Shown piece by piece: positions 10,310 through 21,292 of a stretch of 21,292 nt of DNA (its first letter is position 1; each line of letters begins with the position of its first letter). Source of the DNA: a virus. The DNA lies in the UHGV virus genome UHGV-0273766. One strand, 5' to 3'. Position numbers and translations under genes: made by a program. The notes below the pieces were generated by a model. The model worked only from the letters and a program-made list of their open reading frames with translations, did no database searches and was not told where the DNA came from.

Positions 10310-10921
10310 TCAAAGAGAAAAGCTAAAGCCCAGAAGGGAAGCCAAAGAACTTGAGGATTGGTTAAACGTGCTGTGCAATGCGAAGGTCATTGGGAATGAC
10401 TTAAATTCAGTAACCTGATCTCGCGCATAGGTGACATCGCCGGTAGTGACCGGGAATACCGTCATCTCATTTTCCAGTTTGGTTAAGCCGGAAGACAGCA
10501 ACCGATAAATACGCACATTGAGCAAATATTTAGACGGTATATTCCCGGTACCGTCCGGATTGATTACCCGACTTTTTGCCGTCTTAAACCAGTCCAAAAC
10601 GAGGCCATCAACGGTATCCCTGACCATCATTGTTATCTGCCCTGGCGAACGCTCCGTTGGTTGAAGGATATTCCCTCCGCCGATTTTAATCGTTTCATAT
10701 TCGATGCTGTAATCGTGGTAGGTAATATCTTTGGCAAAGAAGTCTGCCCCCTCCAGTCCATCAACTTCGACAGAGAACTGCCATCCTTGCGCGAACAGCA
10801 TTTTGTTCATGATGATTGACGTCAGCTTACCAACTTCCCGTTCACCAACGCCGGAGCCAAATAATGTCGTCGTTAATGCCGAAGATACATAAGACTTTAC
10901 TGAAGCAACATTAAACCCCAT
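10310..10921 (-). CDS. Hypothetical protein (203 aa), probable tail morphogenesis or structural protein
   Basis: Complete ORF with GAGAGG-type Shine-Dalgarno; tightly packed in the minus-strand operon. Confidence 0.55.
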   Translation of the reverse strand: MGFNVASVKSYVSSALTTTLFGSGVGEREVGKLTSIIMNKMLFAQGWQFSVEVDGLEGADFFAKDITYHDYSIEYETIKIGGGNILQPTERSPGQITMMVRDTVDGLVLDWFKTAKSRVINPDGTGNIPSKYLLNVRIYRLLSSGLTKLENEMTVFPVTTGDVTYARDQVTEFKSFPMTFALHSTFNQSSSSLASLLGFSFSL

Positions 10922-10931
10922 ATCAGCCCTC

Positions 10932-11522
<591 letters not shown>

Positions 11523-11556
11523 TTAACCGATTCTACGAGTAGTCATTTGTGACAGG

Positions 11557-12033
11557 TCATTTTGCGCGCTTCAGGCAGCCATCTTCAGGTGCCGCGTTGA
11601 AAAGCTCTGCGGCCTTACGTAGCGTAAATGTTGCGATTTTTTTTCCGTCTACGTATGCATCGAATGTTTTAACTTCCATATCAGGGGTATCTGACCAAAA
11701 ACCATACCAGTAACTATCACCCACAGAGGAACCGATAGAACTGATAGGATATTCATCATCACCAACTTTCAGCGTTATTTGTTCTTTTTTAGCATCAAAT
11801 GACTCACCGCCAGGTTCTGTTTTCATGAGAGTGAGTAGTCGTGTTCCTACTTGATTGGGATCCGTATTATTAAATCCAACATCGCACTCAAATGTAAGCG
11901 TATAATTATCTTTGCTGGAAACAGCATAAGAACGAACACCATGAGTCTCGCCGGTTGACCATTTGCTTACATTTGCCATTGATGAAAATGGAGTAAGCAA
12001 AGCAAGAATTAGAAAAAATCGTTTGATGCGCAT
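11557..12033 (-). CDS. Secreted or periplasmic small protein (158 aa) with N-terminal signal peptide; AT-rich gene
   Basis: N-terminus MRIKRFFLILALLTPFSSMA is a classical Sec signal peptide; gene and flanking intergenic regions look AT-rich by eye (not computed); two Cys in the mature part. Confidence 0.6.
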   Translation of the reverse strand: MRIKRFFLILALLTPFSSMANVSKWSTGETHGVRSYAVSSKDNYTLTFECDVGFNNTDPNQVGTRLLTLMKTEPGGESFDAKKEQITLKVGDDEYPISSIGSSVGDSYWYGFWSDTPDMEVKTFDAYVDGKKIATFTLRKAAELFNAAPEDGCLKRAK

Positions 12034-12094
12034 TAATTTATCTCCTTTGGATATTAACGATTATCAATATTTTAATTGGTTATCCATAATATAT

Positions 12095-12742
12095 TTACCA
12101 TTCATAGGGTAAATTAAGCGCTTTTAAACCTTGCTGGAAGGTATTAAGTGAACCGTTCTTTTGTTGTTCCATTTGTTCGCGTGCCGCTTTCTCATACTGC
12201 TCCATCCGTTGGTTATACTCTTGCAATTCCTCTGGTGAGAGGTTTCCCATTGGGGAGTTTGTACCCGGCCCCCTGGCCCGCTCTTCAAGTGTACCCTGCA
12301 CGTTTTGATGGCGCATTCCTGGGGCATTTCTGATTGAGTCAATGCCATTTCTTCCAACGTCTTCTTTATTAACGGCATTGCTCGCCACCAGCACACCCCA
12401 GCTAGGAATAGCAAAATCAGGAGCGGTTTCGCATGCCTTTACCATATAATCGAAAGTGCTTCGATTGATCTCATTTGCATCGGGGTTTAATAGGCGAGAA
12501 TATTGGTATTTAGCATTTGCGTTGGTTGAGACTTTATACAGTTCCTGCTGCACCATCGCTTCAGAAAGTTTAAGGCGCTTCATATCTGACAGTAACTTCT
12601 TGCGCATGGATTCGTCTTCACTGACAGCAAATCCGTAAACGTGCCCAAGGTATTTCGTATAATCGGTACAAATCTCCTTTACGCTTGATGCTGCATTAAC
12701 AGTCCCAGCCATAAATAATAACGGTAGTAATAGTTTTCTCAT
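12095..12742 (-). CDS. Secreted protein (215 aa from the second ATG), candidate superinfection-exclusion (P1 Sim-like) protein
   Basis: Signal peptide MRKLLLPLLFMAGTVNA with GGTGAGG Shine-Dalgarno upstream of the internal ATG (the ORF track starts 9 codons earlier at 12769). C-terminal segment NAPGMRHQNVQGTLEERARGPGT is shared with the Sit-like protein. Confidence 0.6.
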   Translation of the reverse strand: MRKLLLPLLFMAGTVNAASSVKEICTDYTKYLGHVYGFAVSEDESMRKKLLSDMKRLKLSEAMVQQELYKVSTNANAKYQYSRLLNPDANEINRSTFDYMVKACETAPDFAIPSWGVLVASNAVNKEDVGRNGIDSIRNAPGMRHQNVQGTLEERARGPGTNSPMGNLSPEELQEYNQRMEQYEKAAREQMEQQKNGSLNTFQQGLKALNLPYEW

Positions 12743-12838
12743 TATAACCTCACCTGCCTTATAACTCATTTAGGGTACATATTTTCGCCTTTAAAAAAAA
12801 GAGGTTATTAGATCCAATTGTGCATTTATTAAACAAAC

Positions 12839-12855
12839 AATGCTCTAATAAATTT
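12839..12855 (+). promoter_or_regulatory. P1-type C1 repressor operator (Op51-like)
   Basis: AATGCTCTAATAAATTT matches 16 of 17 positions of the P1 C1 operator consensus ATTGCTCTAATAAATTT (recalled from the literature). Confidence 0.6.
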
Positions 12856-13019
12856 GTATTTTTAAGTCACGAATGCTATCTTTTCGCATCATATTGACCT
12901 TTTAATCGTTCAGGCTTATAGTTCCGCCGTCGTAGCAAATTCTGCGACCGGGTTTAGCAGCCTGAATGTTAGTGCGGACAACCGCAGATATCCGATATTG
13001 CGGTATTTTTGTGTCCGTA

Positions 13020-13110
13020 AAACCGCGTTACGCCCAAATTATGGTGGGGCGTGATGGGGAGGCTTCGGCCTGCTGGTTTCACTAACGCCAGTCTGCTAAC
13101 CCCGTCACGT
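13020..13110 (+). ncRNA. Putative c4-like antisense repressor RNA region (boundaries approximate)
   Basis: Between the operator and the icd-like ORF. Elements CACTAAC (13080-13086) and CTGCTAA (13093-13099) are complementary to GTTAGTG (13152-13158, overlapping the Shine-Dalgarno of the icd-like ORF) and TTAGCAG (13123-13129). Contains a GGC-TTCG-GCC hairpin. Confidence 0.35.
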
Positions 13111-13169
13111 CCTGCCACCTGTTTAGCAGCGGGTAGCAGGTTGTTAAACCTGTTAGTGAGGCCGTAACT

Positions 13170-13391
13170 ATGGTTAATGCCAATCCTTGCGCACGCCAAG
13201 AATTCATCTGGCGTTTCTATTCCTGTAAAAAACACCACTATCACTTCGTTATCGCAGCAACAGAAGACGAAGCACGCTCTCAATTGCCTGATGGCCCCTG
13301 CATTTTTACTGCCCGTTTTTCAACTAACTCGCGCAATTCACTTAGTTACTGGAGCCTCCCCTTCTCTGCCGACGTTCAGGGGGGTTTATGA
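13170..13391 (+). CDS. icd: Icd-like small protein (73 aa), translationally coupled to the antirepressor
   Basis: GAGG about 8 nt upstream of the ATG; its stop overlaps the antirepressor ATG (ATGA). Size and position match P1 icd as I recall it. Confidence 0.45.
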   Translation: MVNANPCARQEFIWRFYSCKKHHYHFVIAATEDEARSQLPDGPCIFTARFSTNSRNSLSYWSLPFSADVQGGL

Positions 13392-14422
13392 AAACACCTC
13401 TCGTCACCCGTAATGAAATAGCCGAAGCGATCGCCTTGCATACAATCTGTATGCCGACACGGGAGATCCCCGGCGCAATTGCCAACTATTTCATGATAAC
13501 CAGGCGTTTTTATACCCGAACAGATAAGGCTGTGATCAACAGGCTACTGATAGCCGAGATCAGGGATTATTTGATTGAACAAGGACGTCTACGTTACGCA
13601 ACAGTGGCAGCAGAAATGAGAAAGGAGGCACATAGAATGACCGGTAATAATTTAAATGTTGAAAAACCAGCACCTGTTGCTTCAGCTACGCCAGCACCAG
13701 CCCTGAATGTCATCCCCAACACCGGAGACACAATCGACAGCCAAACATTGTTGAAGATGGTCAATGAGGCACGGAAATTATGTAGCGAAAAACCAGTTCG
13801 CAACAATGATTTCATTGCCAGAGTTAAGGATGAGCTTGAAGGAGAAACCTACGAAATTTTCGTAGGTCAAAAAAACGGCGCAGAAATAGATATTATAACC
13901 ATGACCTACAAACAAGCCCTGCGAGTTGCCGCGCGCGAGTCAAAAGCGGTCCGCCGTTCGCTGATCGACAAACTGGAAGAATTACAGCAGGCAAACTCCC
14001 CTACCCCATCGATCCCCCAAACATTACCAGAAGCCCTACGCCTGGCTGCCGAGTTGGCAGAACAGAAAATGCATCTGGAACAACAGCTGGTGGCCGCAGC
14101 ACCTAAAGTCGATTTTGCCGACCGGGTATCAGTGGCTAATGGAATCCTGATCGGTAACTTTGCAAAGGTCGTTGGACTTAAGCAAAACGCCCTTTTCTCA
14201 TGGTTGCGCCAGAACGGCATTCTCATGGCTTTTGGTGCGCGCAAAAACGTACCGCGCCAGCAGTACATTAACGCCGGGTATTTCACGGTGAAAGAAGTGG
14301 TGCTGGATGATGAAAATGGCTATCAGATACGGCTGACGCCACAATTAACGGGTAAAGGCCAGCAGTGGTTAACTCGCAAGCTACTTGATGCTGGTTTGTT
14401 AAAACCAGTAGCAATAGGTTAA
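13388..14422 (+). CDS. ant: Phage antirepressor with C-terminal KilAC/ANT domain (344 aa)
   Basis: C-terminal LPEALRLAAELAEQK...APKVDFADRV...ILIGNFAKVVG...QQYINAGYFTVKE...TGKGQQWLTRKLLDAG matches the KilA-C/ANT family by eye; G-rich Shine-Dalgarno; followed by a terminator. Confidence 0.75.
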   Translation: MKTPLVTRNEIAEAIALHTICMPTREIPGAIANYFMITRRFYTRTDKAVINRLLIAEIRDYLIEQGRLRYATVAAEMRKEAHRMTGNNLNVEKPAPVASATPAPALNVIPNTGDTIDSQTLLKMVNEARKLCSEKPVRNNDFIARVKDELEGETYEIFVGQKNGAEIDIITMTYKQALRVAARESKAVRRSLIDKLEELQQANSPTPSIPQTLPEALRLAAELAEQKMHLEQQLVAAAPKVDFADRVSVANGILIGNFAKVVGLKQNALFSWLRQNGILMAFGARKNVPRQQYINAGYFTVKEVVLDDENGYQIRLTPQLTGKGQQWLTRKLLDAGLLKPVAIG

Positions 14423-16932: not shown

Positions 16933-17340
16933 GTGTCAGGCATCCTCAACGCACCCGCACGTAACCCGCTTCGGCGGGTTTTGTTTTTTCCTGGCATTCT
17001 GGTTTACAATTCGCACGCCAGCCTGAACAACTGGCACCTGCTGCGCCAGCAGAGACAACCGATGGCGCACGATACCAAATTACACAATTCTGATGATTCT
17101 GCCGTCTTTGCCAGCAGGCACGGGCGGCGTTCCCGCACTTTCAAATCTGACTGGTTCCAGCATCCCCCATGCACTGAAGAACAGGCCGAGTGGCTAATTC
17201 AGTGCTACCGCAGACACGGATACGAGATTAAGAAAGCCCTCAGCCTCGATTATCGTCACTGGATAATCTCCGTCAGGCTTCCTTACTCCGAACGATCACC
17301 GCGTCCGTCCCGCACATTCCAGCAACGCATCTGGAGGTAA
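16933..17340 (+). CDS. Hypothetical protein (up to 135 aa; start uncertain, possibly the internal ATG at 17062)
   Basis: ORF between hok and the DUF968 gene, in the position occupied by rem in the Qin prophage; no recognisable motif. Confidence 0.35.
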   Translation: MSGILNAPARNPLRRVLFFPGILVYNSHASLNNWHLLRQQRQPMAHDTKLHNSDDSAVFASRHGRRSRTFKSDWFQHPPCTEEQAEWLIQCYRRHGYEIKKALSLDYRHWIISVRLPYSERSPRPSRTFQQRIWR

Positions 17341-17341
17341 C

Positions 17342-18388
17342 GTGCGAGTATTACTTCGACCTGTTCTGGTACCGGAACTCGGGCTGGTGATCGTTAAGCC
17401 GGGCCGTGAATCCATGCCGGTATTCCACAATACCCGGGTACTGGTGGAGCCGGAACCGAAAAGCATGCGTAATCTGCCGTCCGGGGGCGTTCCTGCCGTT
17501 CGCCAGCCGCTGGTGGAAGACAAAACATTGCTGCCGTTTTTCAGTAACGCACGGGTGATTCGTGCTGCTGGTGGTGCTGGTGCATTGTCTGACTGGCTGT
17601 TGCGCCATATTAAATCCTGCCAGTGGCCACACGGCGATTATCATCACAGCGAAACCGTCATTCACCGTTATGGTACCGGCGCAATGGTGTTGTGCTGGCA
17701 CTGCGACAACCAGTTGCGTGACCAGACCTCCGAATCACTTGAGCAACTTGCTCACCAAAACTTGTCAGCATGGATGATTGACGTCATTCGTCACGCAATG
17801 AATGGCACACAGGAGCGGGAATTATCGCTGGCTGAATTATCTTGGTGGGCAACCATAAATAACGTAGCGGACGCACTACCGGAGACGGTATTACGTCGTT
17901 CGCTGGGATTGCGCGCGGAAAAAATTAGCTCAGTATACCGCGAGAGCGACATCGTGCCGGGAGAGCAGAGTGCCACCAGCATGCTGAAGCAGCGCACAAA
18001 AAATATTGCGCCGCTGCTTCACGCCCACCAGCAAAACCCGCCACAGGAAAAGACGGTGGTCAGCATTGCCGTTGAGCCGGAGTCTCCGGAATCTTTCATG
18101 AAACGACCTAAACGTCGCCGCTGGCTTAACGAGAAATACACGCGCTGGGTTAAGACACAGCCGTGTGCATGTTGTGGAAAGCCTGCTGATGATCCCCACC
18201 ACTTGATAGGCCACGGTCAGGGTGGAATGGGTACTAAAGCGCATGACCTCTTTGTGTTGCCTTTGTGCAGAAAACATCACGACGAGCTGCATGCGGATAC
18301 CGTGGCATTTGAAGAGAAGTATGGCTCCCAGCTGGAGCTGATATTTCGTTTTATCGATCGTGCGCTGGCAATAGGCGTGCTGGCCTGA
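17342..18388 (+). CDS. DUF968-family protein (YdfU-like) with C-terminal Cys/His HNH-like motif (348 aa; GTG start, uncertain)
   Basis: C-terminal CACCGK...DDPHHL...GGMGTKAHDLFVLPLCRKHHDELH is characteristic of DUF968 proteins found in lambdoid nin regions; order hok, small ORF, DUF968, Q mirrors the Qin prophage. Confidence 0.7.
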   Translation: MRVLLRPVLVPELGLVIVKPGRESMPVFHNTRVLVEPEPKSMRNLPSGGVPAVRQPLVEDKTLLPFFSNARVIRAAGGAGALSDWLLRHIKSCQWPHGDYHHSETVIHRYGTGAMVLCWHCDNQLRDQTSESLEQLAHQNLSAWMIDVIRHAMNGTQERELSLAELSWWATINNVADALPETVLRRSLGLRAEKISSVYRESDIVPGEQSATSMLKQRTKNIAPLLHAHQQNPPQEKTVVSIAVEPESPESFMKRPKRRRWLNEKYTRWVKTQPCACCGKPADDPHHLIGHGQGGMGTKAHDLFVLPLCRKHHDELHADTVAFEEKYGSQLELIFRFIDRALAIGVLA

Positions 18389-18405
18389 TTTTGTGGAGAA
18401 AGTTG

Positions 18406-18777
18406 ATGCGTGATATTCAAATGGTTCTTGAACGTTGGGGGGCATGGGTGGCAAATAATCACGAGGATGTGGAATGGTCATCTGTTGCTGCAGGTTTTAA
18501 GGGATTAATTCCTTCGAAAGTAAAATCCCGCCCGCAATGTAGCGATGACGATGGCCTGATCATTAGCTCTGCGATGACAGTTCTTAAGAAAAAGGAACCG
18601 TATCAATACGAATTACTGGAAATGTATTATGTGTATGGGGTTACATTACGGGTGTTGGGGGTAAAACTGGGGATATCACTTAATCAGGTTGTTATCAGAC
18701 TGCAGAAAGCTGAAGGGTTTATTGACGGTTGTCTGGCAATGTTGGGGGTATCTTTAGAAATTGATTGTTACATATAG
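18406..18777 (+). CDS. Antitermination protein Q-like (phage 82-type Q family, 123 aa)
   Basis: N-terminus MRDIQMVLERWGAWVANNHEDVEWSS matches my recollection of short Q proteins annotated in E. coli prophages; GGAG about 7 nt upstream; followed by an AT-rich intergenic region as expected for a late promoter and qut site. Confidence 0.65.
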   Translation: MRDIQMVLERWGAWVANNHEDVEWSSVAAGFKGLIPSKVKSRPQCSDDDGLIISSAMTVLKKKEPYQYELLEMYYVYGVTLRVLGVKLGISLNQVVIRLQKAEGFIDGCLAMLGVSLEIDCYI

Positions 18778-18852
18778 TAATAAATTCAATCAAAGTAAAT
18801 AATCATATTTTATTATAACCTCCTGATGATACCTGTTCATTGGGAGGTTATT

Positions 18853-19470
18853 ATGGATAAAAATGTAGAGCATGTATTAGTTGATGCAATTGAAAATAAG
18901 CAATCTTTAACAGTCGTTTACTTAGGAGGGAGCCAGCCCGGAACATTAAGGAATATTTCTCCGATTAGTATAAATGGGGATAAATTGCGGGCAAGATGCC
19001 ATAGTTCTGGAGCAGTAAAGGTTTTCAATCTTGGGAAAATACAGTTACCCAGTGACTCCTGCGCGGTATCTATGCACTATGGAGATTTAGAAGTTAAAGC
19101 TTATGAGACGATGCAGAGCGTAAATGACAACTTTCATGCCCTTTATCCTGAAGGACGATGGGGTGTTGATTTTAATGAGCATCGCTTTGCTTTATTTGAT
19201 TTTTTTAAAAACGGGAAACGAAAAAAAACGGCATTTATGGCAATTGAGTTCAGGGAAAGAGATGAAGAGAAAATAATAACAGGTGTAACAATTGATATTG
19301 GTATATCTGGAACAGTGATTTCTGAGAAGTCCCGAATCCCAAAAAGACGACCATGGGTAGTGGTTGGTCCCGAACACGGAGAATACAGTACTTATTCAAC
19401 TTTGGACAAGGCTGCTACAGCGTTTTTTGAGAGGCTTTCGTTGATAGCATCCGGCCTGGAAGATAATTGA
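18853..19470 (+). CDS. Hypothetical protein (205 aa), AT-rich moron immediately downstream of Q; possible WYL-like N-terminal domain
   Basis: GGGAGG Shine-Dalgarno 5 nt before the ATG; AT-rich by eye; N-terminal pattern VVYLGG...R.ISPISI....LRARCH.....KVFNLGKI resembles WYL/Sm-like folds; followed by a rho-independent terminator. Confidence 0.6.
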   Translation: MDKNVEHVLVDAIENKQSLTVVYLGGSQPGTLRNISPISINGDKLRARCHSSGAVKVFNLGKIQLPSDSCAVSMHYGDLEVKAYETMQSVNDNFHALYPEGRWGVDFNEHRFALFDFFKNGKRKKTAFMAIEFRERDEEKIITGVTIDIGISGTVISEKSRIPKRRPWVVVGPEHGEYSTYSTLDKAATAFFERLSLIASGLEDN

Positions 19471-19600
19471 TTTTATGTTTGGTATTCAGAGTTCGCCGTG
19501 CTTAAGAAAGTCAAGATTCTAAAAATACTGAATGAGCTACTTGTGTTATAACAAAAATGCTATTAGTGTGTTAAGAGTGGTTACTTCGCCACACAACTTA

Positions 19601-19626
19601 AACCCGCCACTGAGCGGGTTTTTTGT
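19601..19626 (+). terminator. Rho-independent terminator downstream of the moron
   Basis: Stem AACCCGC / GCGGGTT (7 bp), loop CACTGA, followed by a T-run. Confidence 0.75.
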
Positions 19627-19746
19627 ACCTGTAAACTTGGTGCAGTACAGTAAACACGCTGGTGGTCGTGAATACTGACTTTTTATCTTGCTGGCTTTTT
19701 AGACAAGAGTTATTGGTATGTCATGTTAACCAGAAGGGAAAAAGAC

Positions 19747-19944
19747 ATGCTAAAACAGCAAGATATGACCGAAACCGCCAGAGTGGTGTTTAATGAATTG
19801 AGCGTCACCGAACCGGCGACAGTCGGGGAGATTGCGCAGAATACTTACCTTTCACGCGAACGCTGCCAGTTAATACTGACCCAGCTGGTTATGGCGGGTC
19901 TGGCAGACTATCAGTTCGGTTGTTACAGACGCCTTCCGCAGTGA
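19747..19944 (+). CDS. Small hypothetical protein (65 aa), possible winged-helix DNA-binding protein
   Basis: AAGGGA about 9 nt upstream of the second ATG; TVGEIAQNTYLSRERCQLILTQLVMAGLA resembles a recognition helix / wing; a terminator hairpin overlaps its stop codon. Confidence 0.4.
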   Translation: MLKQQDMTETARVVFNELSVTEPATVGEIAQNTYLSRERCQLILTQLVMAGLADYQFGCYRRLPQ

Positions 19945-19957
19945 AGGCTTTTTTATT
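19931..19957 (+). terminator. Rho-independent terminator overlapping the stop of the small ORF
   Basis: Stem GCCTTC / GAAGGC, loop CGCAGT, followed by TTTTTTATTT. Confidence 0.65.
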
Positions 19958-20094
19958 TGTGGTAAATGGGCGGCTGGTGGGTGTTAGGGGCACCCACCAG
20001 CCATCTGCTCATGCGTTGGGTTCACAAGCAAACCTCAGGCCCACTGCTTTGCGCAAAAGCAGAATGAGCCTATCAGAGACAGGCTTAATGATCC

Positions 20095-21144
20095 ATGCTT
20101 AATACTGTAAAAATATCCAGTTGTGAGTTAATCAACGCCGACTGCCTGGAATTTATCCGGTCGTTACCCGAAAATTCTGTTGACCTGATAGTCACGGACC
20201 CGCCGTACTTTAAAGTGAAGCCTGAGGGCTGGGATAACCAGTGGAAGGGCGACGATGATTACCTGAAGTGGCTGGACCAGTGTCTGGCGCAGTTCTGGCG
20301 GGTGCTGAAACCTGCCGGAAGTCTTTACCTGTTCTGTGGTCATCGCCTGGCATCTGATATCGAAATCATGATGCGTGAACGCTTCAGTGTGCTGAACCAT
20401 ATTATCTGGGCGAAGCCGTCCGGACGCTGGAACGGATGCAACAAGGAAAGCCTGCGGGCGTATTTCCCCGCCACAGAGCGCATTCTGTTCGCGGAACATT
20501 ATCAGGGGCCGTATCGTCCGAAAGATGCCGGGTATGCGGCGAAGGGCAGTGCACTGAAACAGCATGTGATGGCCCCGCTGATTTCTTACTTTCGTGATGC
20601 GCGCGCGGCCCTGGGGATAACGGCAAAACAGATTGCAGATGCCACAGGAAAGAAAAACATGGTGTCGCACTGGTTCAGTGCCAGTCAGTGGCAGCTACCG
20701 AACGAAAGCGATTATCTGAAATTACAGTCGCTGTTTGCCCGGGTGGCAGAAGAGAAACATCAGCGCGGTGAACTGGAAAAGCCCCACCACCAGCTGGTGG
20801 ATACGTATACGTCACTGAACCGGCAGTATGTGGAGCTGCAGAGTGAATATAAGCATCTGCGGCGGTATTTTGGTGTGACGGCGCAGGTGCCGTACACGGA
20901 TGTGTGGACACATAAACCGGTGCAGTTCTATCCCGGGAAACATCCGTGCGAAAAACCGGCAGAAATGCTGCAGCAGATAATCAGCGCAAGCAGTCGTCCG
21001 GGTGACCTGGTTGCAGATTTTTTTATGGGCTCAGGTTCAACGGTAAAAGCGGCACTGGCGCTCGGGCGTCGTGCGATTGGCGTTGAGCTGGAGACCGGAC
21101 GTTTTGAGCAGACAGTCAGGGAAGTTCAGGATTTAATCGTTTGA
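20095..21144 (+). CDS. Orphan DNA methyltransferase, beta-class amino-methyltransferase (N6-adenine or N4-cytosine), 349 aa
   Basis: Motif IV TDPPY near the N-terminus and motif I FFMGSGST near the C-terminus (beta-class order); no restriction endonuclease gene adjacent. Confidence 0.85.
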   Translation: MLNTVKISSCELINADCLEFIRSLPENSVDLIVTDPPYFKVKPEGWDNQWKGDDDYLKWLDQCLAQFWRVLKPAGSLYLFCGHRLASDIEIMMRERFSVLNHIIWAKPSGRWNGCNKESLRAYFPATERILFAEHYQGPYRPKDAGYAAKGSALKQHVMAPLISYFRDARAALGITAKQIADATGKKNMVSHWFSASQWQLPNESDYLKLQSLFARVAEEKHQRGELEKPHHQLVDTYTSLNRQYVELQSEYKHLRRYFGVTAQVPYTDVWTHKPVQFYPGKHPCEKPAEMLQQIISASSRPGDLVADFFMGSGSTVKAALALGRRAIGVELETGRFEQTVREVQDLIV

Positions 21145-21193
21145 AACGGATGAGATTGCAGAATTAATTACGCACCATTATTATTCTGCTCCC

Positions 21194-21269
21194 GGCCCTT
21201 TAGCTCAGTGGTGAGAGCGAGCGACTCATAATCGCCAGGTCGCTGGTTCAAATCCAGCAAGGGCCACCA
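21194..21269 (+). tRNA. tRNA with anticodon CAT, tRNA-Ile2-like (lysidine type) or tRNA-Met; CCA encoded
   Basis: 7-bp acceptor stem GGCCCTT/AAGGGCC, D-arm AGCTCAGTGG, anticodon loop CTCATAA, T-arm GGTTCAAATCC, discriminator A plus CCA. Closely resembles E. coli ileX/ileY-type tRNA from memory. Confidence 0.85.
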
Positions 21270-21292
21270 TCACATACCGCCATTAGCTCATC

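What the first reader, a model, noticed from the sequence alone, without database searches (positions are those of the whole stretch)
12095..12742. Secreted protein shares a ~20 aa motif with the Sit-like injection transglycosylase: candidate superinfection-exclusion decoy
The 215 aa signal-peptide protein at the head of the tail operon contains NAPGMRHQNVQGTLEERARGPGT. The 1130 aa Sit-like protein contains NGRGMRREVVQGTLEERARGKGT (about 6449-6517) and a second NSPGMRK copy (about 6291-6330), both C-terminal to its SLT domain. The DNA has diverged but the peptide is conserved, which suggests selection on the motif. A periplasmic protein mimicking part of an incoming injection protein could block infection by related phages (P1 Sim and T4 Spackle are conceptual precedents). 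This link has not, to my knowledge, been described.
Basis: partly seen in the sequence, partly recalled or inferred. Interest (0 to 1): 0.7.

Follow-up and report, generated by a model that had tools for sequence, protein, structure and literature searches.

The report
Intact P1 simA carries tape-measure motif
A small exported protein, encoded where phage P1 keeps its superinfection-exclusion genes, carries a conserved 35-40 residue copy of a flexible segment of the phage's own DNA-injection (tape-measure) protein, so it may block related phages by mimicry, though no experiment has tested this.

Summary
The 215-aa ORF (12095-12742, minus strand) and the 1130-aa Sit protein share a 35-40 residue module (BLASTP E=2e-9; hhalign E=1e-8). 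A profile search of 1.84 billion proteins found the module only in Sit-type tape-measure proteins and in this small-protein family. Synonymous sites between the two copies are saturated while the peptide is kept, so this is old divergence under purifying selection.

- The ORF is not in the tail operon. It lies upstream of late promoter LPsit, in the hypervariable "sim" slot.
- P1's annotated 52-aa SimA is the 5' remnant of this gene (first 112 nt identical). In P1, simB-simC replaced the rest.

The protein has a Sec signal peptide, a helical N-domain with two invariant cysteines and no detectable fold relative, a predicted-disordered "Sit box", and a C-terminal helix. The first half of the box (NxxGMRxQ) is nearly invariant across the family. 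The second half is replaced by other tails in some members.

The best reading is a periplasmic, non-essential accessory protein that interferes with genome delivery by displaying Sit's linear motif. This rests on position and sequence only. The competitor-versus-binder question is open, and partner/Sit co-variation was not significant.

The parts
12095..12742 (-). CDS of the 215-aa protein, the intact form of P1 simA (PHROG 3933). An in-frame upstream ATG at 12769 would give 224 aa.
   Evidence: ORF list and translation. phrog_3933 matched end to end, E=5e-136. The RBS GGTGAGG sits 5 nt before the ATG at 12742.
12692..12742 (-). Predicted Sec signal peptide, residues 1-17 (MRKLLLPLLFMAGTVNA, then ASS)
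   Evidence: Read from the sequence: basic n-region, 12-residue hydrophobic core, V-N-A cleavage motif. N16 and A17 are invariant in the family alignment. There is no lipobox cysteine.
12353..12691 (-). Family-defining helical N-domain, residues 18-130, with invariant Cys25 and Cys104
12239..12340 (-). 'Sit box', residues 135-168, homologous to Sit 936-969. The core NAPGMRHQNVQGTLEERARGPGT lies at 12260-12328.
   Evidence: The region is predicted flexible (pLDDT 47-61) with a short helix at residues 152-157.
12119..12235 (-). C-terminal Gln/Glu-rich long helix, residues 170-208, followed by the conserved end LNLPYEW
   Evidence: AF2 helix H170-208. The tail is shared with P0012, which is 58% identical overall. 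It is absent from the alternative-tail alleles.
12748..12754 (-). Ribosome-binding site GGTGAGG for the ATG at 12742
   Evidence: Sequence. It is conserved with P1 and with Ro157c2YLVW.
12839..12855 (.). C1 repressor operator Oc4 (AATGCTCTAATAAATTT), about 95 bp upstream of the gene. P1's predicted PsimA promoter lies just next to it.
   Evidence: P1 annotation carried over by DNA alignment. Promoter activity and C1 control of this gene were not tested.
11557..12033 (-). Companion gene: 158-aa YfjT-like protein with its own signal peptide (MRIKRFFLILALLTPFSSMA)
   Evidence: Translation. phrog_3429. It follows the simA-family gene in L004, L005, L035, L079, L080 and L081.
11530..11548 (-). Late promoter LPsit (-22 box aaatgacta, -10 tagaat), which heads the pmgC-tub-pmgB-sit late operon
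   Evidence: P1 annotation. The sequence is identical in the window.
5940..9332 (-). sit: 1130-aa tape-measure / injection protein. Its SLT domain spans residues 748-857 (DNA 6762-7091).
   Evidence: Its role as P1 tape-measure protein is from PMC9024508 and PMC12810830.
6426..6527 (-). Sit box, full copy, Sit residues 936-969 (NKFMNGRGMRREVVQGTLEERARGKGTATAAGNV)
   Evidence: The AF2 model of the Sit C-terminal region gives pLDDT of about 30-35 here, with a short helix at TLEERA.
6291..6320 (-). Second, half-box copy in Sit, residues 1005-1014 (KLRNSPGMRK)
   Evidence: It is present in P1-type Sit proteins and absent from the D6-like Sit proteins examined.

Best explanation
**Shown**
- The ORF is the intact version of the gene whose 5' remnant is annotated as simA in phage P1.
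- It lies in the hypervariable, non-essential 'sim' slot of P1-like phage-plasmids, between the c4-icd-ant immunity region and late promoter LPsit. It is outside the late tail operon.
- Its parts are a Sec signal peptide, a helical N-domain with two invariant cysteines, a 35-40 residue predicted-disordered 'Sit box', and a C-terminal helix.
- The Sit box is homologous to a segment just C-terminal to the SLT domain of the tape-measure/injection protein Sit.
- In public protein space, the box was found only in these two families.
- Both copies are under purifying selection.

**Inferred**
- The protein is exported to the periplasm and expressed from the same upstream signals that drive simB-simC in P1.
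- It interferes with genome delivery by incoming P1-like phages, that is, superinfection exclusion.
- The likeliest mechanism is molecular mimicry. During infection Sit is expelled from the tail into the periplasm, and its flexible box must engage some partner, either a host envelope factor or another part of the injection apparatus. The resident periplasmic protein displays the same linear motif and competes for that partner, so the DNA channel is not completed.

Neither the exclusion phenotype nor the binding partner is demonstrated.
For: **Locus**
- P1 has simC-simB-simA, and P7 has two other exported proteins, at exactly this position.
- The region is one of eight hypervariable regions of P1-like phage-plasmids (PMC9603915).
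- The sim genes are non-essential and sit is essential (PMC10695390).
- P1 sim causes superinfection exclusion (Kliem & Dreiseikelmann 1989, as cited in PMC8546580).

**Identity with simA**
- P1 SimA matches the first 36 residues of the 215-aa protein, and the first 112 nt are identical in DNA. The upstream region is conserved, including Oc4 and the RBS.

**Export**
- The signal peptide is read from the sequence. Cys25 and Cys104 are invariant.

**Module specificity and selection**.
- The partner-versus-Sit motif distance (pN 0.22) is no larger than partner-versus-partner distances between lineages (0.18-0.30). This fits one shared constraint on both copies.

**Disorder in both proteins**.

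**The box belongs to the family**
- N139 and R144 are invariant; G142 and Q146 are nearly so.

**Dispensable for virions**
- P1 keeps only a remnant. P7 gave no match to the protein and has two unrelated genes in the slot. L084 has no gene in the slot.
- In PLSDB, 84 of 267 matching plasmids carry the full-length allele.

**Precedents for exclusion aimed at the tape-measure protein**
- T4 Imm binds the tape-measure protein (bioRxiv 10.64898/2026.03.06.709160).
- TP-J34 Ltp is the prototype lipoprotein exclusion family (PMC3952083, abstract); that its target is the tape-measure protein is from my own knowledge.
Against: - No experiment links this protein to exclusion. The positional argument is guilt by association in a slot that also holds unrelated cargo.
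- Several family members keep only the first half of the box and carry unrelated Cys-containing tails. The full 23-residue match is therefore not needed for whatever the family does.
- Five cognate partner/Sit pairs show no significant co-variation (p about 0.12).
- No binding partner for the box is known.
- The gene's promoter abuts the C1 operator, so expression in the lysogen is uncertain.
- Low pLDDT may partly reflect shallow alignments (15-18 sequences) rather than true disorder.
Confidence: 0.4

Rival explanations
1. Direct binder or inhibitor. The periplasmic protein binds incoming Sit itself, much as T4 Spackle binds gp5 lysozyme or T4 Imm binds the tape-measure protein. The box would mediate homotypic co-assembly with Sit's box region (a poison-subunit effect) or dock where Sit's own box docks. 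This differs from competition for a third party.
For: Exclusion proteins that act on the injection apparatus are known. Sit carries the box in one and a half copies, which could indicate self-association. A folded, conserved N-domain could supply a binding surface.
Against: No cognate co-variation was seen, though direct binding would tend to produce it. Sit's SLT domain is swapped between otherwise identical Sit proteins (26-54% identity over residues 701-900) while the box region stays 98-100% identical, which argues against a box-to-SLT docking. There is no structural similarity to Spackle or any inhibitor.
Confidence: 0.15
2. Lysogenic-conversion or envelope-fitness factor unrelated to phage exclusion. 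The box would be a shared handling signal, for example recognition by the same periplasmic protease or chaperone, or peptidoglycan association, that happens to be used by two phage proteins that both reach the periplasm.
For: The slot carries diverse exported cargo: a YfjT-like protein, DUF5384, and a lipoprotein with sub-threshold TraT similarity. GC content is lower than the surroundings, as in morons (44.4% against 47.5%). The junction between the N-domain and the alternative tails falls right after GMRxQ, as expected for a module or processing boundary.
Against: The box occurs in no host protein and no other protein family among 1.84 billion sequences. A general handling signal should be more widespread. 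The only other carrier is the one virion protein that enters the periplasm during injection.
Confidence: 0.25
3. Evolutionary relic. The box is a leftover of an old illegitimate recombination between sit and this gene, serving only as a linker with no function of its own.
For: The locus and sit are both mosaic, with breakpoints near the box. The 163-aa allele ends just after ARGPG, and the alternative tails begin after GMRxQ.
Against: Synonymous sites are saturated while the peptide is conserved in every comparison. The box is about as constrained as the folded N-domain (pN 0.18-0.30 against 0.21-0.25 for the window versus D6-like partners). It is retained in lineages whose N-domains are only 46-60% identical.
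Confidence: 0.05
4. Tail-assembly or virion protein: the first gene of the late tail operon, acting with Sit in the cytoplasm (implied by the reader's phrase 'head of the tail operon').
For: It has the same orientation as the pmgC-tub-pmgB-sit operon and lies close to it.
Against: It lies upstream of LPsit. It has a cleavable signal peptide. It is reduced to a remnant in P1, has no detectable copy in P7, and L084 has no gene at that position, yet P1 and P7 make functional tails. The sim region is non-essential in P1.
Confidence: 0.03

Closest known systems
P1 SimA (52-aa annotated ORF; 'simA domain protein'; PHROG 3933)
   Same: It is the same gene. The first 112 nt are identical, as are the upstream region, the signal peptide and the genomic slot. 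The family HMM is matched end to end.
   Different: P1's version is a truncated remnant with no N-domain, box or tail. The window encodes the intact 215-aa protein. No function has been shown for either.
P1 Sim (SimC), the superimmunity / superinfection-exclusion protein
   Same: Same locus. Both have an N-terminal signal peptide. SimC is a non-essential accessory gene. Sim is thought to block DNA entry by superinfecting P1 (PMC8546580).
   Different: There is no sequence similarity. SimC has no Sit-like segment. SimC's mechanism is also unknown.
T4 Spackle (Sp), periplasmic inhibitor of the gp5 tail lysozyme
   Different: No fold or sequence similarity to any PDB entry. Spackle binds a folded lysozyme domain. 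Here the link is a shared disordered motif outside the SLT domain.
Exclusion proteins that target the tape-measure protein: T4 Imm, TP-J34 Ltp, HK97 gp15
   Same: They act at genome delivery through the tape-measure protein. T4 Imm binds the tape-measure protein. That Ltp targets the tape-measure protein and that HK97 gp15 blocks tape-measure-dependent DNA entry are from my own knowledge.
   Different: Those are membrane proteins or lipoproteins with no sequence copied from their target. This protein is soluble and periplasmic (no lipobox, no transmembrane segment) and carries a homologue of a segment of the tape-measure protein.

Membership tests
SimA family (PHROG 3933, 'simA domain protein') | Full-length match to the family profile | tested here: met
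   phrog_3933 E=5e-136, residues 1-215 on profile 1-213/213. 28 homologous clusters, all on contigs no longer than about 99 kb, several of 90-99 kb, the size of P1/D6-like elements.
SimA family (PHROG 3933, 'simA domain protein') | N-terminus and genomic slot shared with P1 simA | tested here: met
   P1 SimA matches residues 1-36 of the 215-aa protein, and the DNA is identical for the first 112 nt. The gene sits between Oc4/c4-icd-ant and LPsit.
P1 Sim (SimC) exclusion protein | Sequence homology to SimC | tested here: not met
   BLASTP best E=28. Different PHROGs: 14355 versus 3933.
P1 Sim (SimC) exclusion protein | Cleavable signal peptide, periplasmic location | tested here: inconclusive
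   A signal-peptide-like N-terminus with a V-N-A cleavage motif and invariant cysteines is present. No dedicated predictor was available, and export cannot be tested here.
P1 Sim (SimC) exclusion protein | Blocks infection after adsorption when expressed | not testable with these tools
   Needs plating, adsorption and DNA-entry assays.
Spackle-like periplasmic inhibitors of tail lysozymes | Fold or sequence similarity to Spackle | tested here: not met
Membrane-anchored exclusion proteins that bind the tape-measure protein (T4 Imm, Ltp, HK97 gp15) | Transmembrane helices or a lipobox | tested here: not met
   The only hydrophobic stretch is the signal peptide. The residue after the cleavage site is Ala, not Cys. 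The AF2 model shows a soluble helical domain.
Membrane-anchored exclusion proteins that bind the tape-measure protein (T4 Imm, Ltp, HK97 gp15) | Physical binding to the tape-measure protein | not testable with these tools
   No complex prediction or binding assay was available.
SLT lytic transglycosylase / Sit tape-measure family | SLT catalytic domain (PF01464) | tested here: not met
   Pfam finds SLT in Sit (E=2.7e-27) but not in the 215-aa protein. Only a roughly 40-column module is shared.
PTP-like phytase (PF14566) | Score above the gathering threshold and a Cx5R catalytic loop | tested here: not met
   25.7 bits against a cut-off of 27, covering only profile positions 48-132. There is no HCxxGxxR motif in the sequence. 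Treated as a false or uninformative hit.

The most novel reading that the evidence does not exclude
A temperate phage encodes a periplasmic molecular mimic of a short disordered motif of its own tape-measure/injection protein. By displaying this 'Sit box' in the periplasm, the protein competitively blocks the step at which incoming Sit engages an as yet unknown envelope factor. That would be superinfection exclusion by linear-motif mimicry, a mechanism I found described for no phage. It would also mark the Sit box as the handle for finding the missing host or phage partner in P1 DNA entry.
Probability: 0.3. Interest if true: 0.8.

Novelty: new variant of a known kind. Interest (0 to 1): 0.6.

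Why it matters
**P1 genome delivery.** How P1 delivers its genome across the periplasm and inner membrane is unknown. Sit is unresolved in the cryo-EM maps, and how Sim excludes has been open since the 1980s. A 35-40 residue motif shared only by the injection protein and a resident periplasmic protein gives a concrete reagent. Peptides, point mutants and escape mutants could be used to find what Sit touches during entry and to test a mimicry mode of exclusion.

**Annotation.** The result also corrects an annotation. P1 'simA' is a vestige of a widespread gene. The intact gene is present in 84 of the 267 matching PLSDB plasmids, nearly all of P1-like size and predicted non-mobilizable. These elements often carry resistance genes, so factors governing their mutual exclusion bear on their spread.

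Tried and rejected
1. **Word-indexed homologue search with the motif alignment.** It returned only five fragments and not even full-length Sit, so it says nothing about distribution. The exhaustive HMM search replaced it.
3. **PTP-like phytase Pfam hit.** It is below threshold and lacks the catalytic motif. Rejected.
4. **Defence-system library PADLOC.** No hits for this protein, its neighbour, SimB, SimC or the L035 cassette proteins.
5. **Co-variation between each partner and its own phage's Sit.** Five pairs, permutation p about 0.12, not significant. A divergent partner (P0159, GSMAERARG) and a divergent Sit (P0157, GSMADRAYG) share T-to-S and L-to-M changes. They could not be placed on one genome, because P0159's contigs are only 1.2 kb and P0157's locus lacks the gene.
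6. **Alternative C-terminal tails against cognate Sit.** The Cys-containing tails match nothing in Sit.
7. **Other cassette proteins of the slot (SimB, SimC, Upf50.0, Upf50.5).** None shares a segment with Sit, so mimicry of a virion protein is not a general property of the slot.
8. **AF2 of Sit residues 740-1130, to see whether the box docks on the SLT domain.** The region after the SLT domain is low confidence, so no conclusion about docking is possible.
9. **Literature.** The P1 genome paper (PMC523184) is not held. Searches found no description of intact simA or of the Sit-box sharing.

Full report
**What the window is.** The window is part of a P1-like phage-plasmid (genus Punavirus). The stretch 5900-13400 is 97.6% identical to Escherichia phage vB_EcoM-Ro157c2YLVW and about 97% identical to P1 and P7, apart from a replaced stretch. 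The 215-aa protein is 100% identical to one encoded on the 92-kb E. coli plasmid NZ_CP027590.1. On the minus strand the order is bplA, pmgA, sit (5940-9332), pmgB, tub, pmgC (10932-11498), a 158-aa ORF (11557-12033) and the 215-aa ORF of the finding (12095-12742). The divergent c4-icd-ant immunity region follows.

- Both peptides are exactly as quoted.
- Three tests show a real match: pairwise BLASTP E=2e-9, the Sit-family PHROG profile E=4.4e-8, and profile-profile hhalign at 95.6% probability, E=1.1e-8, over 40 columns.
- With D6-like relatives added, the similarity runs over about 50 columns in the multiple alignment (VDKIG ... KFxNxxGMR ... GTLxERAxGxGT ... MGN).
- The window protein hits the Sit protein of every related phage examined, with E from 1e-5 to 1e-11.
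- A profile of the module, read by HMMER against 1.84 billion representative proteins, found ten proteins at E<=1e-3. They were three Sit-type tape-measure proteins (1081-1124 aa), members and fragments of the small-protein family including a divergent 176-aa member, and one spurious repeat protein.
- At codon level, 12 of the 16 degenerate codons that encode the same residue in both copies (residues 139-161) differ synonymously.
- By Nei-Gojobori, pS is 0.76-0.88 (saturated) and pN is 0.12-0.22 between the two copies. The same pattern holds for every partner/partner and Sit/Sit comparison across lineages.
- The similarity is therefore old and maintained by selection. It is not a recent gene conversion.

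- P1's late promoter LPsit (-22 box aaatgacta, -10 tagaat) is conserved at 11530-11548, between pmgC and the 158-aa ORF. Both small ORFs therefore lie upstream of the late tail operon, not in it.
- In P1 this same interval, from LPsit to the C1 operator Oc4, holds simC-simB-simA, the superimmunity region. In P7 it holds two other exported proteins, Upf50.0 (DUF5384) and the lipoprotein Upf50.5.
- P1's annotated 52-aa SimA (MSYKAGEVIMRKLLLPLLFMAGTVNAASSVKEICTDYTKYLGHVY...) matches the start of the window ORF.
- The DNA is identical for the first 112 nt, then decays. P1's simB start codon aligns at codon Met46 of the intact gene.
- The upstream region with Oc4 and the RBS GGTGAGG is conserved.
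- P1 simA is thus the 5' stump of this gene. In P1 the simB-simC cassette replaced the rest and presumably uses the same expression signals.
- The literature agrees on the character of the slot. simABC is one of eight hypervariable regions of P1-like phage-plasmids (PMC9603915). The sim genes are non-essential while sit is essential (PMC10695390). sim causes superinfection exclusion (Kliem & Dreiseikelmann 1989, cited in PMC8546580).

**Anatomy of the protein.**
- Residues 1-17 form a classical Sec signal peptide (MRK, a hydrophobic core, then VNA|A). There is no lipobox.
- Residues 18-130 form an all-helical domain. pLDDT is about 90 or more from residue 21 to about 120, with invariant Cys25 and Cys104.
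- Residues 135-168 are the Sit box, predicted flexible (pLDDT 47-61) with a short helix at LEERAR.
- Residues 170-208 are a long Gln/Glu-rich helix, ending in LNLPYEW.
- In Sit the box lies about 80 residues after the SLT domain, in a region that AlphaFold2 also leaves unstructured (pLDDT about 30-35, short helix at TLEERA).
- The alignments are shallow, so 'disordered' is a prediction. A well conserved sequence within a flexible region is nevertheless the signature of a linear binding motif.

**The family.**
- Homologues are few (28 clusters at 90% identity). All sit on contigs no longer than about 99 kb from Escherichia, Salmonella and Klebsiella, several of them 90-99 kb, the size of P1- and D6-like phage-plasmids.
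- The N-domain and the first half of the box are conserved throughout. N139 and R144 are invariant, and G142 and Q146 are nearly so.
- After GMRxQ the family splits:
 - Some members continue with the Sit-like VxG(T/S)LxxRARGxG, followed by a coiled coil, a Cys-containing tail or an early stop.
 - Others switch at once to unrelated Cys-containing tails that match nothing in their own Sit.
- Sit itself has a second, half-box copy (KLRNSPGMRK) in P1-type phages. The shared core is therefore (F/L)xNxxGMR, and the GTLEERARG half is an extension kept in a subset.
- Among P1-like elements with essentially the same Sit box, three alleles occupy the slot:
 - the intact 215-aa gene (84 of 267 matching PLSDB plasmids);
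 - a 163-aa form cut just after ARGPG and followed by a different cassette;
 - the 48-residue stump with other cargo, as in P1.
- A YfjT-like exported protein (the 158-aa ORF in the window) is the constant companion of the gene.

**Mechanism.**
- Sit is the P1 tape-measure protein. Its SLT domain is proposed to supply the tail's muralytic activity (PMC9024508, PMC12810830). Tape-measure proteins of contractile phages are expelled into the periplasm and form the DNA conduit (T4: bioRxiv 10.64898/2026.03.06.709160).
- Given the evidence above, the most economical explanation is that the protein interferes with Sit's action during superinfection.
- I favour competition (mimicry) over direct binding, for three reasons:
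 - The two copies are held to the same consensus. The partner-versus-Sit distance is no greater than partner-versus-partner distances.
 - There is no cognate co-variation.
 - Sit's SLT domain is exchanged between otherwise identical Sit proteins while the box stays unchanged, so the box does not seem tuned to the SLT domain.
- These arguments are indirect. The exclusion phenotype, the export, the timing of expression (the predicted promoter abuts the C1 operator) and the ligand are all untested.
- Members that lack the second half of the box show that the 23-residue identity is not essential to the family's basic role.

**Comparison with known systems.**
- By every test, the protein belongs to the SimA family and is its intact form.
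- It is not a homologue of SimC, Spackle or any solved inhibitor.
- It is not a membrane-anchored exclusion protein of the Imm, Ltp or gp15 type, and it is not an SLT enzyme.
- It may work like those exclusion systems, in that it would act at the tape-measure-dependent delivery step. It differs in being soluble and in carrying a piece homologous to its presumed target.
- I found no description of the intact gene or of the shared box in the searchable literature. The P1 genome paper could not be read.

**Verdict.**
- Observation: confirmed.
- Interpretation: partly supported, and strengthened by the locus, but unproven.
- Novelty: a new variant of a known kind, namely phage-encoded interference with genome delivery.
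- Interest: 0.6.

Noticed in passing
window 16957-21292: Beyond about 16956 the window stops matching P1-type phages and instead matches hundreds of Stx-converting and lambdoid phages at 90-95% identity. It encodes a DUF968/HNH protein (17342-18388), a lambdoid antiterminator Q (18391-18777) and an N6/N4 DNA methylase (20095-21144). This is lambdoid cargo inside a P1-like phage-plasmid, probably at the rlfA-rlfB-pmgF variable region.
   Followed up: partly
window 11557-12033 (-): The 158-aa neighbour is a YfjT-like protein with its own Sec signal peptide. It is the conserved companion of the simA-family gene in P1-like and D6-like elements, at 28-64% identity. Its function is unknown. The two may act together.
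   Followed up: partly
window 6633-7232 (Sit residues about 701-900) compared with L035:14579-17953: Sit is itself mosaic. A Sit protein from another P1-like element is 94-100% identical over residues 1-650 and 98-100% over 901-1130, but only 26-54% identical over residues 701-900. The SLT domain is therefore exchanged as a cassette, independently of the C-terminal box.
   Followed up: partly
L035:9974-12258 (IMG/VR UViG_2636416131_000001): A third allele of the slot. The simA-family gene is truncated to 163 aa just after ...EERARGPG. It is followed by a 168-aa YfjT-like exported protein and a 394-aa protein of unknown function. Neither matches PADLOC.
   Followed up: partly
L002:6723-7244 (phage P7 upf50.5): The P7 lipoprotein in the same slot has a sub-threshold similarity to TraT, the plasmid surface-exclusion and serum-resistance lipoprotein (E=7e-5, 23 bits against a cut-off of 31). 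RefSeq names it 'DNA methyltransferase', which looks like a mis-annotation.
   Followed up: no
window 12098-12118 (-), residues 209-215: The C-terminal heptapeptide LNLPYEW is identical in the window protein and in a Salmonella homologue that is only 58% identical overall (P0012). This suggests a functional C-terminal tag ending in an aromatic residue. It is unexplained.
   Followed up: no
L082 / L083 (P0159) and L084 (P0157): A divergent family member (176 aa...NAPGMRHQAVKGSMAERARGDGT) and a divergent Sit (...NAPGMRHQVATGSMADRAYGMGT) both read GSM where the others read GTL. This could be co-variation. The two could not be placed on one genome: the contigs are 1.2 kb, and the Sit locus L084 lacks the gene.
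   Followed up: partly
P0002, P0004, P0005, P0007, P0008, P0017 (Logan assemblies): Several 205-aa variants of the protein are frameshifted within or just after the box (for example ...EERARGRVQTPQWETS...). They may be assembly errors or real pseudogenes. This was not resolved.
   Followed up: no
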